From a virus (Duplodnaviria; Caudoviricetes), in the IMG/VR virus record IMGVR_UViG_3300014204_000134, positions 36,453-100,452 of that record: DNA of 64,000 bases. One strand, 5' to 3'. The position numbers and the translations under genes were made by a program. Of the stretch, positions 2 through 36,934 are shown piece by piece; the stretch's first letter is position 1, and each line of letters opens with the position of its first letter. The notes below the pieces were generated by a model. That model was not told the DNA's origin. It saw only the letters and a program-made list of their open reading frames with translations, and searched no databases.

Positions 2-2518
2 AATATAAAATATGCAGAAGAAGAAACTTTTGATTTAAATTTAAAGACATACGATGAATTAGTAAATGCATTTAAAAAACAAGATGCCTTACCAGAAGAA
101 ATTTATCTTCAAGCAATTGAAAATACTAATCAATTATTAGATTTAGTGGAAGATTTTGAACTTGATACAACAAACAAATATCCTAGACTATATGAAAATG
201 CAGAAGAAATATTTAAAAAGAAAATTAATGAAGGTGTTATAAAAAGAAAAATAAACAATTATGATATCGAAGAAAGAAAGAAATACTTTAATAGAATTAA
301 AGAAGAACTTGAAGTATATAAAATATGTGATGCCATAGATTATATTTTACTACAAGAAAATATTACTTCTTGGGCAAGAGAAAATGGTATTGATCCAGGC
401 CCAGGTAGAGGATCGGTTACAGGTAGTGAAAACGCTTATATTTTAGGTGTAACTGATATGGATTCGATTAAACATAATTTAAACTTTACTCGATTTTTAA
501 ATCCTGATCGTATATCTTTATCGGACATAGATATAGACTACCCACCTTCACGGAGAAACGAAGTAATAGATTATGTAGCAAACATACCAGGAATATATTT
601 TTCTGAAATTGTAACTTTTAATACCATTAATTATAGGGGTGCTATAAGAGATACGGGGAGAGCATTAAATATACCTTTATCTGAAGTTGATGAAATAGCA
701 AAAAACTATGAGGGGAATGAAGATTATTACAGAAAGCAATATCCAGAATTATTTAAATATGTAGACTTACTTAAAGGAGTTAATGTTAGTATTGGTTCTC
801 ATCCTTCAGGATTTATTGTAAGTCCAATAAACATCGAAGAAAATATTGGAACATTTACAACTTCTACTTGTAGATACCCTGTTTCATGTTGTGATATGAA
901 AGCTGTAGATTCAATAAATTTTGTAAAATTAGATATTCTTGGACTTGACAATATTGAAATAATTAATGAAACATGTAAACTAGCAAATATTGAACGAGTT
1001 ACACCTGATAATGTTGATATTCATAATGATAAAGTATGGAATAGTATTAAAGAAAATGGATTATCAATATTTCAAATGGAAAGTAAATTTGCTCATGATT
1101 CACTATTAAAAGCATTAGAATCATATAATAAAATAAAAGAAACAAATAAAAATATTACTCGTATTGACTTGATGAGTATGGTAAATGGAGCAATACGTCC
1201 TTCTGGAGAATCTTTTAGAGATGCTTTAATTAGTGGTGAATTTAACAATAATGGTCATCCCGCATTAAATAATTTACTTTCAAATACACAAGGTTTTCTA
1301 GTATATCAAGAATCTATCATTCAATTTTTAGTTGAATTTTGTGGATTCACAGCAGCTCAAGCCGATTCTGTAAGGCGTAAAATAGGAAAAAAATTAGGTA
1401 CTGATGATGTTATTCCAGAAATTAAAGAACGATTTATTAAAACAATGCAGGATAAATATAATTTATCAAACAAAGAATTAGAAACAATTGTTGAACCATT
1501 TTTACAAATTATATCAGATGCTAGTTCATATGGGTTTTCACTAAATCATAGTCAACCATATTCATATATTGGTTATATTTGTGGATATTTACGTTATTAT
1601 TATCCCCTTGAGTTTCTTACAATAGTATTAAATATTAATAAAGATAATATTGAAAAAACAAGTGAAATAATTAAATATGCAAACTCTAAAAGCATTACCA
1701 TTCAACCAATTAAATTTCGCAAATCCCAAGCAAAATATTCAATGGATAAAGAAACAAATAGTATTTTTAAAGGTATCGAATCTATTAAATTTTGTAATTC
1801 TCAGATTGCCAAAGAACTCTACCAATTAAAAGATAATCAGTACAGTTCATTTATTAATCTTTTAATTGACATCGAAAATACTTCTTGTAACTCTCGACAA
1901 TTAGAAATTCTTATTACTCTTAACTTTTTTGATGAATTTAGTAATAACCAAAAACTATTAAACATTTATAATTTATTTAAAAAATTATACGGCAAAAAAC
2001 AAATCAAAAAAGAAAAAGTATTAGAACTAGGTATTGAAGAATCGACCGTTAAACAATATTCAAGAGAAACAGCAAAATCATATTTAGACGTTGATATAAT
2101 TGCCATACTTAAAGATTATGAAAATAAAATACCGAACGAATCAATTAATATTATTGATCAAATATCTTTTGAAAAAGAAAATCTCGGATATTCTCAAACT
2201 ACAATACCACAAATAAATAATAATATTTTCATCGTTGTAAATACAAATTTAAAATACACTCCTGTAGTAACTATATATTGTCTTCAAAATGGAGCAGAAG
2301 AAAAATATAAAATACCAAAAAAATATTTTAATCAAAAAGAAAAAATATTAGACATTGGTTCTATTATTGCAGTTTCCAAAAAAGAAAAGCGTCCAAGATA
2401 TAGAAAGACTGAAAATGGATTTGAGAAAATATCTGGAGAGTTTGAAGGTTATATCACGGACTATTATATTGCTTCAACAGACAAACTCAACAATTACATC
2501 AAAACTCTAACCCCATAA
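2..2518 (+). CDS. dnaE: DNA polymerase III alpha subunit (C-family, phage-encoded); 5'-partial
   Basis: GPGRGS, DIDID, HPSG, KLDILGL, IFQMES, YQE and YGFSLNHS motifs. Frame is open from base 2, so the gene starts upstream of the window. Confidence 0.95.
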   Translation, partial: NIKYAEEETFDLNLKTYDELVNAFKKQDALPEEIYLQAIENTNQLLDLVEDFELDTTNKYPRLYENAEEIFKKKINEGVIKRKINNYDIEERKKYFNRIKEELEVYKICDAIDYILLQENITSWARENGIDPGPGRGSVTGSENAYILGVTDMDSIKHNLNFTRFLNPDRISLSDIDIDYPPSRRNEVIDYVANIPGIYFSEIVTFNTINYRGAIRDTGRALNIPLSEVDEIAKNYEGNEDYYRKQYPELFKYVDLLKGVNVSIGSHPSGFIVSPINIEENIGTFTTSTCRYPVSCCDMKAVDSINFVKLDILGLDNIEIINETCKLANIERVTPDNVDIHNDKVWNSIKENGLSIFQMESKFAHDSLLKALESYNKIKETNKNITRIDLMSMVNGAIRPSGESFRDALISGEFNNNGHPALNNLLSNTQGFLVYQESIIQFLVEFCGFTAAQADSVRRKIGKKLGTDDVIPEIKERFIKTMQDKYNLSNKELETIVEPFLQIISDASSYGFSLNHSQPYSYIGYICGYLRYYYPLEFLTIVLNINKDNIEKTSEIIKYANSKSITIQPIKFRKSQAKYSMDKETNSIFKGIESIKFCNSQIAKELYQLKDNQYSSFINLLIDIENTSCNSRQLEILITLNFFDEFSNNQKLLNIYNLFKKLYGKKQIKKEKVLELGIEESTVKQYSRETAKSYLDVDIIAILKDYENKIPNESINIIDQISFEKENLGYSQTTIPQINNNIFIVVNTNLKYTPVVTIYCLQNGAEEKYKIPKKYFNQKEKILDIGSIIAVSKKEKRPRYRKTENGFEKISGEFEGYITDYYIASTDKLNNYIKTLTP

Positions 2519-31882: not shown

Positions 31883-33289
31883 CTAATTATTCTTTAATAC
31901 ATTACCCAATATATTATCTGCGTTTTCAACTTCCCAATACCATATTTCTAATAAATCTATATTGTTATTTTCTGCATATTCTTGTTTCCGTCTATCATGC
32001 TCCTGTTGTTTTTCAAGATTCTGTTTCGTATAATAACTTCTGCCACCATCATGAAATTCGCCTTGGTACTCAACTAATAAGTTATATTTAGGTAAATAAA
32101 AATCATATGATAATAAACCATTTCCTAACCCTACAAGTCCACTAAATGTTTTTTGCGAAATAAAATACATATTATCATTTTTATTTAATAATTTATTATA
32201 AGTTTCTTGATCAATTTCAATAAAACCATTATTCACAAAAATATCTTTACATTTTTTTTCGCCTCTAGATTTATTACACTCAGGGCAACCAGTTTCCCAA
32301 TTACTACTTCTATCAGAAATAATAGCTTTCCATTCGTATCCACATTCTTTACATATCCACCAAACCTTTTTACTACTATAAGGACAATATTCTTCAGGTT
32401 TATCTTTATTCCTTTTATAATTCCATTCTTTACTAAGTTCGGGATTAATCACTAATAAATTATAATCTTTACTAGGTAATAGATGAGCACAATAAGGACA
32501 ATTACTACCATCATTTCTACTTTTAATTGTTGCTTGCCATTCATGTCCCTTTTCGCACATCCACCAGACTTTTTTACCACTACCAGGAGTATATTCTTCT
32601 GGTTTTTTCTTATTTTTATTATAATCCCATTCTTTGCAAAGTTCTGGATTAATAAATAATAAATTATAATCCTTACTTGGTAATTGACCAACACAATATG
32701 GACAATTATTACCCTTACTATTACGTGTACTAATTTTTGTTTTCCACTCATGTTTAGGATTTTTAGAACATTGCCACCAAACTTCTTTATTACTATTACA
32801 AACTACATTATATGGTGTTAAATCACCATTTTTAGTTGGATGCCATTCTTTAGCCAAATCATGACGTTTTGTTGCAAGGCAATTTGATAAACCTGCTTTT
32901 AATCCCCTACAATAAGGACAACCAGTATTTTGTAATATACTATCCCAAATTACTTCAAATATTTCTTCGCAATTTTCTTTTAAACACTTCCATTTTAATT
33001 TTATATCACTTCTAATATATTCTTCACTAATTAACTCAAATGATTTATTATTTAATTTACACCATAATTTTATATTTTGAATTGTATAGGGATTAACCTT
33101 ATCAACAATTCTTGGGAAATGACCACTCCTTAATTTATCTAATGAAGTCACATAATAATATCCGTATTTATCTTTTAAAATAAGTTTAGTTAAATTATTC
33201 TTATATTCTTTACTAATTAATTCATATCCTAAATTTTCAATATTTTTTTTAACTTCTTCATATGTAAACTTTTTATTATTTTTACCCAA
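31883..33289 (-). CDS. free-standing endonuclease with zinc-ribbon repeats and DUF2726/PD-(D/E)XK-like C-terminus
   Basis: Repeats PEL.KEW...KN......S.KKVWW.C..GHEW...CPYC; YDFYLP..L.EYQGEFH...IWYWE; TTG start behind GGGGGA. Confidence 0.75.
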   Translation of the reverse strand: MGKNNKKFTYEEVKKNIENLGYELISKEYKNNLTKLILKDKYGYYYVTSLDKLRSGHFPRIVDKVNPYTIQNIKLWCKLNNKSFELISEEYIRSDIKLKWKCLKENCEEIFEVIWDSILQNTGCPYCRGLKAGLSNCLATKRHDLAKEWHPTKNGDLTPYNVVCNSNKEVWWQCSKNPKHEWKTKISTRNSKGNNCPYCVGQLPSKDYNLLFINPELCKEWDYNKNKKKPEEYTPGSGKKVWWMCEKGHEWQATIKSRNDGSNCPYCAHLLPSKDYNLLVINPELSKEWNYKRNKDKPEEYCPYSSKKVWWICKECGYEWKAIISDRSSNWETGCPECNKSRGEKKCKDIFVNNGFIEIDQETYNKLLNKNDNMYFISQKTFSGLVGLGNGLLSYDFYLPKYNLLVEYQGEFHDGGRSYYTKQNLEKQQEHDRRKQEYAENNNIDLLEIWYWEVENADNILGNVLKNN

Positions 33290-33407
33290 ATTCTCGTCCC
33301 CCAATCTCATATTATCCCGCACACTTTAAAAAATAGGGAAGGGGTGTGCAGGACGAGTACCATACCCCTTTGTCAAGCAGTTGCGCTTCTGCTTCAATCC
33401 CTATTCA
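33290..33407 (-). promoter_or_regulatory. structured leader element E3
   Basis: P1 AATAGGGA/TCCCTATT, hairpin AAGCAGAAGCGCAACTGCTT, second hairpin with CTCGTCC complementary to GGACGAG at the RBS. Confidence 0.65.
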
Positions 33408-34864: not shown

Positions 34865-35425
34865 TCAAACATTTTCCTTACTTGCCGCAACTTCCTGCAT
34901 TGTAATATATTCCATACATACTTTCTCTAATTTTTTAAAATCAAAACATCTTCTTGCAATTATATTTTCAGGATATTTATATTTTAATTCATAAATTTTT
35001 AAAGCATTTTTTATAATTGGTAACTGATTTATTTTAACTAATTCAACCTTTAATAAGTCAACATACTTGCTTTTTTCTTCTAAATTATTAAATGTTCTAT
35101 ATTTTTCAATGTCACTATATTTTAAATTTGTAAATAAAGACTTATGAATAGGAAACATATAATTTAAATTTATAACTGCAATGAATCTCCCATCAGCAGG
35201 ATGATATATTTTATAAAAATCAATATTTTGTTTTAGCGTTTTATGTCTTTCTTGAGGATGCGATATTTGCGTAACATATGTTATACTATTATCTACATCA
35301 AACAAAGAACCAAAAAATGGCTTAAATTTATTTAATCCATAATCCGAATTTGGTATTCTTGATTCATAGTTATTTCTTAAATAATTTAAATAATTTTCAT
35401 CTAATGTCTTCCAAATTATACTCAT
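34865..35425 (-). CDS. toxN: type III toxin-antitoxin endoribonuclease, ToxN/AbiQ family
   Basis: YLNYLR..E.RIP......KPFFG, Y...SHP...H, INLNYMFPI, RCFDFKKLE motifs; preceded by tandem repeats and a terminator; start at 35425 (186 aa). Confidence 0.88.
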   Translation of the reverse strand: MSIIWKTLDENYLNYLRNNYESRIPNSDYGLNKFKPFFGSLFDVDNSITYVTQISHPQERHKTLKQNIDFYKIYHPADGRFIAVINLNYMFPIHKSLFTNLKYSDIEKYRTFNNLEEKSKYVDLLKVELVKINQLPIIKNALKIYELKYKYPENIIARRCFDFKKLEKVCMEYITMQEVAASKENV

Positions 35426-35435
35426 TGTTTTTCCT

Positions 35436-35467
35436 AAAATAAAACGAGCTAAATAGCTCATTTTATT
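35436..35467 (-). terminator. terminator between antitoxin array and toxin
   Basis: AATAAAATGAGCT-ATTT-AGCTCGTTTTATTTT; classic toxIN layout. Confidence 0.75.
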
Positions 35468-35566
35468 AATACGATTTTGGTAGGATTCGTAACCTCTATT
35501 AATACGATTTTGGTAGGATTCGTAACCTCTATTAATACGATTTTGGTAGGATTCGTAACCTCTATT
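35468..35566 (-). ncRNA. toxI: ToxI-type antitoxin RNA: 3 identical 33-nt repeats
   Basis: Unit AATAGAGGTTACGAATCCTACCAAAATCGTATT; AGG/CCT and TACGA/TCGTA form an H-type pseudoknot. Confidence 0.85.
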
Positions 35567-35568
35567 CT

Positions 35569-35734
35569 GCATTAAAACTTCTCATTTAACGGTTGAGATA
35601 CACCGAGCATTAAACACTTAAAGTCTCCCACTTACTGGCAGGGAATCTCCTCACTTAAAGTTTTCCACTTGTAGGGCAGGAACTCTCCACACCTTTAAAA
35701 TTCCCTACTATTTGGCAAAGGATCTCCTCACTTA
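35569..35734 (-). ncRNA. four further 37-39-nt pseudoknot-like repeats (heterologous antitoxin-like units)
   Basis: Three related units delimited by A(A)GTG and one unit delimited by TTTAATGC (CGGT/ACCG plus TCTCA/TGAGA pseudoknot). Confidence 0.65.
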
Positions 35735-35743
35735 TATAAGACA

Positions 35744-35840
35744 ATTATATTGTACCAAATATTTGTTTGTCAAGAAAAAATATTTCTATTAATAATAGTT
35801 TTCCGTATATATTATACCATATTAATACATAGTATGTCAA
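35744..35840 (-). promoter_or_regulatory. tandem sigma-A promoters driving the antitoxin array/toxin
   Basis: TTGACA-18-TATAAT at 35773-35744 and TTGACA-18-(TGn)TATAAT at 35840-35811. Confidence 0.65.
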
Positions 35841-35861: not shown

Positions 35862-36833
35862 TTAAAAACAATCATCTAAATCATTACTACCATCACGTAT
35901 AACGTATATCTGAGTAGTCTCAGATGATAAATGTCCGAGTAGAGCTTGTGCCGATTTTATATCTTTCCCTTGTCCTACTACGATATCCGTAGCTCTAGTT
36001 TCCCGCAGAAGGTGAGGGTGAACTCTTCTGCCAACTATTTTTGTAAACATTCCCGAACACCATTTATTAAAAGTGGTTTCAGTAACTTGCTGATATTCAC
36101 CATTCTTATTTTTTGTTACAAATACAAAAGGACAATCATCATTTCCTCTAATGGATAACCAAAATTTTATTGCTTCTAATGCTTTATCGTCATACTGTAA
36201 TCTTCTAACTTTTCCTTCACGACCCTTACCCTTACAGCGAATCAAAGGAGTCAAATAATAATTTTTTCCTTCAACTTTTTCATTATTAACCGTTTCTTTA
36301 AGTAATAATCTTGCTTCTGCTCTACGGCAACCAGAGGCATAACTAAATCCCAAATATGCTATCTGTTGCCATTTCCCTTTTTCTTTTAATGTATTAATTA
36401 ATAATTCATATTCTTCTTGATTTAAAGGAATTTTCTCATGTAAAAATGCTTTTGCAGGATTGGGTATTTTCTTATTATAAATATTTCTAAACAACGGATA
36501 ATCTTCACAATAATATAATTCAATATATCCACACAAACTAGAAACCGAACTTCTTTTAAATTTAACAGCAGAAGAAGACAATCCACGATTAATTAAAAAA
36601 TTCTGATATTTTAATGCATCTCTTGGCTTTAATTCATACAAAGGTCTATTATCCGCATTATCTTTCACCCATCTGAAGAAAATTTTAAGTGCACTGTCAT
36701 ACTGTTCAAGAGTCTTAGGACTTAAATGACCTTGTTCTAAAAATTCTTCCGTCATTTGTCTATTCCATTCATTACATTCTTGCCATTCCTTAGTTGTTAC
36801 TGGATTTATTTTATCAGCAATCTTTTCAACCAA
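35862..36833 (-). CDS. tyrosine recombinase (XerC/D-like) within tail module
   Basis: SGCRRAE, KGK, HPHLLR, LLGH...TT..Y catalytic residues; N-terminal SAM-like domain. Confidence 0.9.
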   Translation of the reverse strand: MVEKIADKINPVTTKEWQECNEWNRQMTEEFLEQGHLSPKTLEQYDSALKIFFRWVKDNADNRPLYELKPRDALKYQNFLINRGLSSSAVKFKRSSVSSLCGYIELYYCEDYPLFRNIYNKKIPNPAKAFLHEKIPLNQEEYELLINTLKEKGKWQQIAYLGFSYASGCRRAEARLLLKETVNNEKVEGKNYYLTPLIRCKGKGREGKVRRLQYDDKALEAIKFWLSIRGNDDCPFVFVTKNKNGEYQQVTETTFNKWCSGMFTKIVGRRVHPHLLRETRATDIVVGQGKDIKSAQALLGHLSSETTQIYVIRDGSNDLDDCF

Positions 36834-36934
36834 AAAATCACTCACCACCAATTTAATATACTATATGTAGTATCTCTATCACTAAAAGACACTACATATA
36901 GTTACAAAACTACCATAAAAGCCATCTTTCATGA

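What the first reader, a model, noticed from the sequence alone, without database searches (positions are those of the whole stretch)
35436..35840. Mosaic type III antitoxin array: three classes of pseudoknot RNA on one phage transcript (possible multi-toxin decoy cassette)
Seen: between a sigma-A promoter and the terminator before a ToxN/AbiQ gene lie 7 units of 33-39 nt, in three unrelated classes. (a) Three degenerate units bounded by A(A)GTG, e.g. AAGTGAGGAGATTCCCTGCCAGTAAGTGGGAGACTTT. (b) One unit bounded on both sides by TTTAATGC, with CGGT/ACCG and TCTCA/TGAGA pairings. (c) Three identical 33-mers with AGG/CCT and TACGA/TCGTA pairings. Classes b and c fold as H-type pseudoknots; class a has a clear second stem (TTCCC/GGGAG) and a weaker first stem. 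Established: ToxI/antiQ arrays are normally near-identical repeats cut by the cognate toxin at a short motif, and phage phiTE evades ToxIN with ToxI-mimic repeats. Inference: class c is the cognate antitoxin. Classes a and b have different boundary (cleavage-like) motifs and may be captured antitoxins that neutralise other hosts' type III TA/Abi toxins. The phage would then carry its own Abi toxin plus an RNA 'keyring' against several others.
Basis: partly seen in the sequence, partly recalled or inferred. Interest (0 to 1): 0.85.

Follow-up and report, generated by a model that had tools for sequence, protein, structure and literature searches.

The report
Phage ToxIN operon carrying foreign antitoxin RNAs
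A gut-type phage carries a toxin gene with its RNA antidote, and the same transcript also holds four RNA units of the kind that normally neutralise a different branch of this toxin family, so the phage may use them to disarm a rival or host suicide nuclease.

Summary
On the minus strand, two perfect sigma-70 promoters are followed by 3 degenerate ~38-nt units (a), 1 unit framed by TTTAATGC (b) and 3 identical 33-mers (c). A terminator hairpin and a ToxN/AbiQ gene follow (true start 35425).

Class c is the cognate antitoxin. About 170 related toxin loci have promoter, c-type units, terminator and toxin, and none has a or b.

Classes a and b are not junk. Covariance models built only from other loci hit them at E 3e-7, 3e-5 and 7.5e-6. 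Elsewhere such units are the native arrays in front of a deeply separate ToxN clade (31% identity, split 100/100). The 100-kb phage contig encodes no toxin of that clade.

Stem 2 of class a covaries (100% paired). A relative with an 89%-identical toxin keeps unit b with a compensatory T-A to C-G change.

The module looks inserted, with its own promoter, between the old leader and the first c unit.

Toxin-less a-like and b-like units also occur in other phages, two of them complete genomes. Earlier reports of this scan found orphan ToxI-like arrays in other phages too.

The three classes share one pseudoknot plan, and a and b map to a single toxin subclade. This is therefore two systems, not a many-toxin keyring. 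A decoy function is inferred, not shown.

The parts
35811..35840 (-). Promoter P1 (TTGACA, 18 nt, TATAAT, with TG). Its ~25-nt leader ends in TTAATAG near 35786.
   Evidence: One search gives 12 of 12. The leader end equals the tail motif that precedes the first c unit in relatives.
35744..35773 (-). Promoter P2, directly upstream of unit a1. Probably the promoter that came with the foreign module.
   Evidence: One search gives 12 of 12. The spacing to the first unit resembles native clade-2 loci such as L296.
35695..35733 (-). Unit a1, a foreign ToxI-like pseudoknot and the most divergent of the three.
   Evidence: CM R1 E 2.9e-5. S2 is kept with one G-U pair.
35657..35694 (-). Unit a2.
   Evidence: nhmmer E 2.5e-4. 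The CM hit is partial (E 0.24). S2 is TTCC/GGAA. The GGAGAG...TGCCC core is identical to a native Dehalobacter-type unit.
35620..35656 (-). Unit a3, followed by a truncated unit start (AAGTG, 35619-35615).
   Evidence: CM R1 42.4 bits, E 2.9e-7. It is near-identical to the orphan unit in L225.
35569..35614 (-). Unit b (35614-35577) plus the second TTTAATGC. S1 is CGGT/ACCG and S2 is TCTCA/TGAGA.
   Evidence: CM R2 40.5 bits, E 7.5e-6, the only strong hit in the window. It matches the model consensus across the conserved core of the 21-unit family.
35463..35561 (-). Units c1-c3, three identical 33-mers: the cognate ToxI array. They are preceded by AGAATAG (35568-35562).
   Evidence: S2 ACGA/TCGT covaries across 160 distinct units and S1 is AGG/CCT.
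35436..35466 (-). Terminator hairpin with a T-run, between the array and the toxin.
   Evidence: the hairpin was detected; it is symmetrical. Read on the minus strand. It holds the same position in all relatives.
34865..35425 (-). ToxN/AbiQ-family endoribonuclease toxin, 186 aa, with an AGGA ribosome-binding site at about 35435.
   Evidence: PF13958 E 3e-39. 272 homologues. PDB 7D8O E 9.8e-6. Clade 1 in the tree.
35862..36851 (-). Tyrosine integrase gene directly upstream. Context only.
   Evidence: PF00589 E 3.8e-17. phrog_1 E 1.7e-38.

Best explanation
This is a chimeric type III toxin-antitoxin operon in a phage.

Shown:
- The toxin is a clade-1 ToxN.
- The three c units are its cognate ToxI.
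- Units a1-a3 and b are true homologues of the ToxI units that sit in front of a different, deeply diverged ToxN clade.
- They lie between the promoters and the only terminator, with no promoter-like site between b and c1, so all seven units should be on one precursor RNA.
- The 100-kb contig encodes no clade-2 toxin.

Inferred history: a foreign module, promoter P2 plus a-a-a-b, was inserted by recombination at the shared TTAA-type tail. The insertion point is between the old P1 leader, which still ends in TTAATAG, and the first c unit.

Inferred function: the foreign units act as orphan antitoxins. A clade-2 ToxN made by the host, a resident prophage or a plasmid would cut the precursor at the unit tails. 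It would then be locked into an inactive RNA-protein ring by the released ~37-nt pseudoknots. That would block abortive infection or a competitor's addiction killing. The c units meanwhile keep the phage's own toxin in check.
For: - Class c is cognate. It matches 100% over 102 nt in loci whose toxins are 51-53% identical. The canonical layout recurs in about 170 loci.
- By BLAST and nhmmer, a and b occur in none of those loci. Only G000 is scored 'abc'.
- Models built without the window give a3 E 2.9e-7, a1 2.9e-5 and b 7.5e-6.
- Native class-a arrays with terminator and ToxN: L296, identical to a Dehalobacter restrictus toxin, PF13958 E 9e-46 and 31% identical to ours; also L326, L330 and L331.
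- Native class-b arrays: 18 of 26 viral pattern hits have a clade-2 toxin directly downstream, as do L318-322 and L335.
- The two toxin clades split at 100/100 support.
- Structure is kept. Class-a S2 is 100% paired, all 4 pairs change on both sides, and 0 of 500 shuffles reach the score. Unit b has a new C-G / T-A version of S1.
- P0002 (toxin 89% identical) reads through 3 c units and a b unit with a T-A to C-G double change in S2.
- Toxin-less relatives occur in other phages. L347 has an a-like plus b-like pair in a complete 140-kb genome with no ToxN. L339 is a complete 22-kb Lactococcus phage. L354 has three different units, a terminator and then a tRNA gene. L225 has an a3-like unit.
- Precedent: the phiTE pseudo-ToxI (PMC3475682).
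Against: - No expression, processing or protection data exist.
- The host is unknown, so no target toxin is identified.
- The contig is only 69% complete, so a clade-2 toxin could lie in the missing part.
- Unit a1 departs from the conserved AAGT loop, and a truncated AAGTG stub sits between a3 and b. Both look like decay or recombination scars.
- Unit b diverges faster than c between the two lineages.
- Only one other lineage (P0002) shares the fusion, and its DNA could not be fetched. No other b-to-c junction exists in IMG/VR.
- Folding energies are uninformative.
Confidence: 0.5

Rival explanations
1. Recombination relic. The a-b segment is the leftover of a clade-2 ToxIN locus, or of a recombination between two loci at their similar tails. 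It is carried along because it lies inside an essential antitoxin transcript, and it has no function of its own.
For: - Junction scars: the P1 leader ends in the c-type tail, an AGAATAG copy precedes c1, and a truncated AAGTG sits between a3 and b.
- a1 is degenerate.
- The fusion is rare.
- An earlier scan note read one toxin-less ToxI array in another genome as a deletion leftover.
Against: - S2 pairing is intact in all four units.
- Unit b matches the family consensus across its conserved core.
- A compensatory change is seen in the 89% relative.
- Similar units occur as stand-alone orphans in unrelated phages.
Confidence: 0.27
2. One expanded cognate array. All seven units are cut by and inhibit the phage's own ToxN. 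Mixed arrays of unlike units are natural in this family.
For: - Mixed three-unit arrays with different stems serve single toxins in clade 2 (L318-322, L337, L361).
- Many class-c arrays have a variant middle unit.
- All tails here share TTAA.
Against: - None of about 170 clade-1 loci uses a-type or b-type units.
- Loop lengths and conserved single-stranded bases differ between c and a/b.
- The native partners of a and b are only about 31% identical to this toxin.
Confidence: 0.13
3. Split system. A clade-2 toxin that pairs with a-b is encoded in the unsequenced ~31% of the phage genome, so a-b is a displaced cognate array rather than a decoy.
For: CheckV completeness is 69%.
Against: - In every native locus seen, the array sits directly upstream of its toxin.
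- No second ToxN is found in 100 kb.
- Complete phage genomes with orphan units and no ToxN exist.
Confidence: 0.06
4. DNA-level repeats, such as integrase arm sites or iterons, next to the integrase gene.
For: The repeats are adjacent to a tyrosine integrase. Each a unit contains two AAGTG-GGAGA half-sites.
Against: The same units elsewhere sit between promoter and terminator in front of ToxN genes. They show RNA-type compensatory changes.
Confidence: 0.02

Closest known systems
Pseudo-ToxI of Pectobacterium phage phiTE, and the phiTE-F recombinant (PMC3475682)
   Same: Phage-encoded repeats resemble the ToxI antitoxin of a ToxIN system that the phage does not itself encode. Recombination with a toxIN locus gave mosaic repeats. 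The RNA suppresses ToxN.
   Different: Here the foreign units are fused upstream of a complete, different ToxIN operon on one transcript. There are four full units of two sequence types. The arrangement is natural rather than selected in the laboratory. No function has been tested.
Canonical toxIN / AbiQ-antiQ type III toxin-antitoxin loci (PMC3401426, PMC8860590)
   Same: Promoter, tandem ~33-36-nt pseudoknot repeats, terminator, and a ToxN-family RNase. Plasmid prophages are known carriers.
   Different: Described toxIN arrays are near-identical repeats of one kind. This locus adds units of another clade's kind and a second promoter.
tenpI arrays with non-identical repeats (PMC12283969)
   Same: Unlike repeat units within one type III array.
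   Different: That is a different toxin family. There the unlike repeats are taken to serve the adjacent toxin. Here the extra units match arrays of another toxin clade.
Orphan antitoxin counter-defence genes in phages, e.g. DarG-like enzymes of T4-like phages (PMC11825919)
   Same: A phage carries an antitoxin without its toxin to neutralise a host toxin-antitoxin defence.
   Different: Those are proteins, whereas these are RNA pseudoknots embedded in another system's antitoxin precursor.

Membership tests
[quoted passage not shown] | Toxin with the ToxN_toxin (PF13958) fold | tested here: met
   E 3e-39 over the whole profile. PDB 7D8O E 9.8e-6.
[quoted passage not shown] | Tandem short repeats between a promoter and a terminator directly upstream of the toxin | tested here: met
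   The same layout is seen in relatives.
[quoted passage not shown] | Repeat folds as a pseudoknot supported by covariation | tested here: met
   S2 ACGA/TCGT has double changes at 4 pairs. S1 AGG/CCT has two invariant G-C pairs and a covarying outer pair.
[quoted passage not shown] | Toxin cuts the precursor into monomers that inhibit it | not testable with these tools
   Needs RNA and toxicity assays.
ToxI units of the clade-2 ToxN lineage (units a1-a3 and b) | Significant match to a model built from units that sit in front of clade-2 toxins | tested here: met
   R1 gives a3 2.9e-7, a1 2.9e-5 and a2 only partial. R2 gives b 7.5e-6. nhmmer gives a2 2.5e-4.
ToxI units of the clade-2 ToxN lineage (units a1-a3 and b) | Family stems kept by compensatory change | tested here: met
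   Class-a S2 is 100% paired with 4 of 4 pairs doubly changed. Unit b S1 has a C-G/T-A variant. Class-a S1 rests on two invariant G-C pairs only.
ToxI units of the clade-2 ToxN lineage (units a1-a3 and b) | Adjacent cognate clade-2 toxin | tested here: not met
   The only ToxN in the 100-kb contig is clade 1. The units are therefore orphans here.
Phage-encoded ToxI mimic (phiTE type) | Encoded in a phage genome | tested here: met
   IMG/VR virus record. Phage integrase and endonuclease families nearby.
Phage-encoded ToxI mimic (phiTE type) | At least one whole unit in phase, flanked by tail motifs and transcribed | tested here: inconclusive
   Whole units and two consensus promoters are present. 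Transcription was not measured.
Phage-encoded ToxI mimic (phiTE type) | Suppresses a host ToxN and rescues phage growth | not testable with these tools
   The host and the target toxin are unknown.
Single mixed cognate array | The same unit types accompany this toxin clade elsewhere | tested here: not met
   No other clade-1 locus of about 170 has a or b units.

The most novel reading that the evidence does not exclude
ToxI units behave as exchangeable modules among phages. This phage makes one precursor RNA that carries antidotes both for its own ToxN and for a foreign ToxN clade. Each nuclease cuts out its own inhibitor, so the phage is armed and immune at once. The toxin-less units in L225, L347, L354 and Lactococcus c2-like phages would be the same trick in simpler form. 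That would make RNA antitoxin decoys a common anti-defence or anti-addiction strategy of Bacillota phages.
Probability: 0.4. Interest if true: 0.75.

Novelty: new variant of a known kind. Interest (0 to 1): 0.6.

Why it matters
Only one phage RNA mimic of a type III antitoxin (phiTE) turned up in the papers searched, and it needed laboratory selection to become active. A natural operon that joins foreign antitoxin units to a working ToxIN system would show three things. Phages collect such RNAs in the wild. ToxI units recombine at their shared tails. One transcript can serve two nucleases. It also gives a concrete, cheap test set: four units and two toxin clades for cross-protection assays. 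These would probe what sets ToxI-ToxN specificity.

Tried and rejected
- Rfam scan of the region: nothing below E 1.
- Megablast and distant BLAST of the region, or of single units, against phage and plasmid records: chance-level hits only. The one exception was a 27-nt hit to Lactococcus c2-like phages, which turned out to be a class-b-like unit.
- First viral scan with the single toxin: nothing.
The DNA of P0002, P0003 and P0004 could not be fetched.
- Pattern scan for class a: 103 hits, nearly all chance matches in coding DNA.
- Scan for another b-to-c junction: chance hits only.
- Nested folding energies: z-scores between -0.5 and +0.3 for every unit, so uninformative for these short pseudoknots.
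- The integrase-site or iteron reading was rejected, because the same units elsewhere are RNA arrays in front of toxins.
It was redone with short motifs.

Full report
**What is there**

The finding lies on the minus strand.

- Two sites match the sigma-70 consensus at 12 of 12 positions: P1 at 35840-35811 and P2 at 35773-35744.
- After P2 come three unlike units of 37-39 nt: a1 35733-35695, a2 35694-35657 and a3 35656-35620.
- A five-base stub of a further unit follows (35619-35615).
- Next is one 38-nt unit framed by TTTAATGC (b, 35614-35577, second copy of the frame at 35576-35569).
- Then come three identical 33-mers (c1-c3, 35561-35463). Tandem Repeats Finder gives 3.1 copies at 100%.
- A hairpin with a T-run follows (about 35466-35436), then a ribosome-binding site and a ToxN/AbiQ gene (PF13958, E 3e-39).
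- The real start of the toxin is ATG 35425 (186 aa), as in relatives that begin MSIKWK. The longer ORF calls read through the repeats.
- The window is part of a 100,452-base IMG/VR virus record that CheckV rates 69% complete. That record has a single ToxN match.

**Class c is the cognate antitoxin**

The toxin has 272 homologues. I fetched about 180 loci from metagenomes, genomes and viral contigs.

- The common layout is promoter, then 2-6 c-type units, then terminator, then toxin.
- The 33-mer is 100% identical over 102 nt in loci whose toxins are only 51-53% identical.
- Across 160 distinct units, stem 2 (ACGA/TCGT) changes on both sides at all four pairs. Stem 1 is AGG/CCT.

**Classes a and b belong to another toxin clade**

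BLAST and nhmmer found no a or b unit in any of the other clade-1 loci.

Pattern scans of IMG/VR led to L296. Its toxin is identical to a Dehalobacter restrictus ToxN/AbiQ-family protein. That locus has a promoter, two class-a-like units, a terminator and a ToxN (E 9e-46) that is 31% identical to ours.

A sample of 399 Clostridia genomes gave 17 with toxins of this second type.

- Class-a-like arrays: L326, L330, L331 and L329.
- Class-b-like arrays: L318-322 and L335.

A class-b pattern found 26 viral stretches. Eighteen have a second-type toxin directly downstream.

Covariance models built only from these outside units hit the window as follows:

| Model | Unit | E-value |
|---|---|---|
| R1 (class a) | a3 | 2.9e-7 |
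| R1 (class a) | a1 | 2.9e-5 |
| R1 (class a) | b | 0.099 |
| R1 (class a) | a2 (partial) | 0.24 |
| R2 (class b) | b | 7.5e-6 |

By nhmmer, a2 scores 2.5e-4.

The toxin tree splits into two clades with 100/100 support. One holds all c-type loci and this phage. The other holds the a-type, b-type and other arrays. Within the second clade, the toxins with strict class-a arrays (L296, L326, L330) and those with class-b arrays share one subclade (99/75).

**Structure**

All three classes have the same order of strands: S1-5', S2-5', S1-3', a loop, S2-3', and a tail that contains TTAA.

- In class a, with the window units included, S2 is paired in 100% of cells. All four pairs change on both sides, and no shuffle out of 500 reaches the score. 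S1 is two invariant G-C pairs.
- Unit b has CGGT/ACCG where relatives have GGG/CCC, AGG/CCT or TGG/CCA. It matches the model consensus across the conserved core of the family.
- Nested energy folding says nothing either way.

**History**

In relatives, the leader after the promoter ends in TTAATAG just before the first c unit. Here the P1 leader still ends in TTAATAG, but P2 follows it. A degenerate copy, AGAATAG, precedes c1.

I read this as an insertion, or a recombination at the tail motif, of a foreign module: P2 plus a-a-a-b.

The a3-to-b junction also looks recombinant. A phage fragment, L225, carries an a3-like unit that runs straight into TTTAATGC and then a terminator.

**Conservation**

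The gene call for P0002 (toxin 89% identical) reads through its own array. It gives three RGYESYQNRIN repeats, which are the c units, and before them a peptide colinear with unit b.

- The visible codon changes include T to C at the first base of S2-5' and A to G at its partner in S2-3'. This is a compensatory T-A to C-G change.
- The residues before that fit the 3' end of a class-a unit.

**Orphans elsewhere**

Eight of the 26 class-b stretches have no toxin in the fetched stretch.

- L347 has an a-like plus b-like pair. It lies in a complete 140-kb phage genome with terminal repeats and no ToxN.
- L339 has a single b-like unit just upstream of the endolysin gene. It lies in a complete 22-kb Lactococcus c2-like phage with no ToxN.
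- L354 has three different units, a terminator and then a tRNA gene.

Earlier reports of this scan describe orphan ToxI-like arrays in other gut and rumen phages. I did not test those.

**Reading**

The identity of the parts is well supported. Their function is not shown.

- I favour orphan antitoxins directed at a foreign clade-2 ToxN (0.5).
- A functionless recombination relic comes next (0.27).
- A single expanded cognate array follows (0.13).
- A partner toxin in the missing part of the genome is less likely (0.06).
- DNA-level repeats are least likely (0.02).

The known precedent is the phiTE pseudo-ToxI and its recombinant phiTE-F (PMC3475682). Non-identical repeats have been reported for tenpI but, in the papers I searched, not for toxIN (PMC12283969). 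I found no paper on natural fused arrays.

Noticed in passing
L318, L319, L320, L322, L337, L361, L362 (about 250 nt upstream of each toxin): Clade-2 ToxIN loci carry a fixed order of three unlike units: a b-type unit, then two units with quite different stems. Each keeps its own pairing. This suggests a ring built from three different antitoxin RNAs. The papers I read call toxIN repeats near-identical.
   Followed up: partly
L339:7841-7880 (+); GenBank MF443119, MN689511, MN689527: Lactococcus c2-like phages have a single class-b-like pseudoknot unit directly upstream of the endolysin gene. The complete 22-kb genome has no ToxN.
   Followed up: partly
L354:9420-9560 (+): A 118-kb phage contig has three different ToxI-like units in a row. 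A hairpin and a tRNA gene follow, and there is no toxin.
   Followed up: partly
L347:5828-5905 (-): A complete 140-kb phage with terminal repeats carries an a-like and a b-like unit side by side and no ToxN anywhere.
   Followed up: partly
L225:273-370 (+), 1458-2036 (+): A phage fragment has one a3-like unit with its own terminator upstream of the small terminase gene. A short tyrosine recombinase gene sits between the small and large terminase genes.
   Followed up: no
L082, L002, L106 and other class-c loci: Many cognate c arrays have a middle unit whose stem 2 is changed on both strands (ACGA/TCGT to ACAG/CTGT). Unlike units therefore also occur in clade 1.
   Followed up: partly
window 34865-35572 (-); P0001, P0002, P0084: Gene callers extend ToxN ORFs through the repeat array, giving false N-terminal repeats such as RGYESYQNRIN x3. 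These read-through calls can be mined to see arrays when the DNA is not at hand.
   Followed up: yes
window 31883-33322 (-): A 479-aa protein has four DUF4379 zinc-ribbon repeats and HNH/homing-endonuclease matches. It lies about 1.5 kb downstream of the toxin gene.
   Followed up: no
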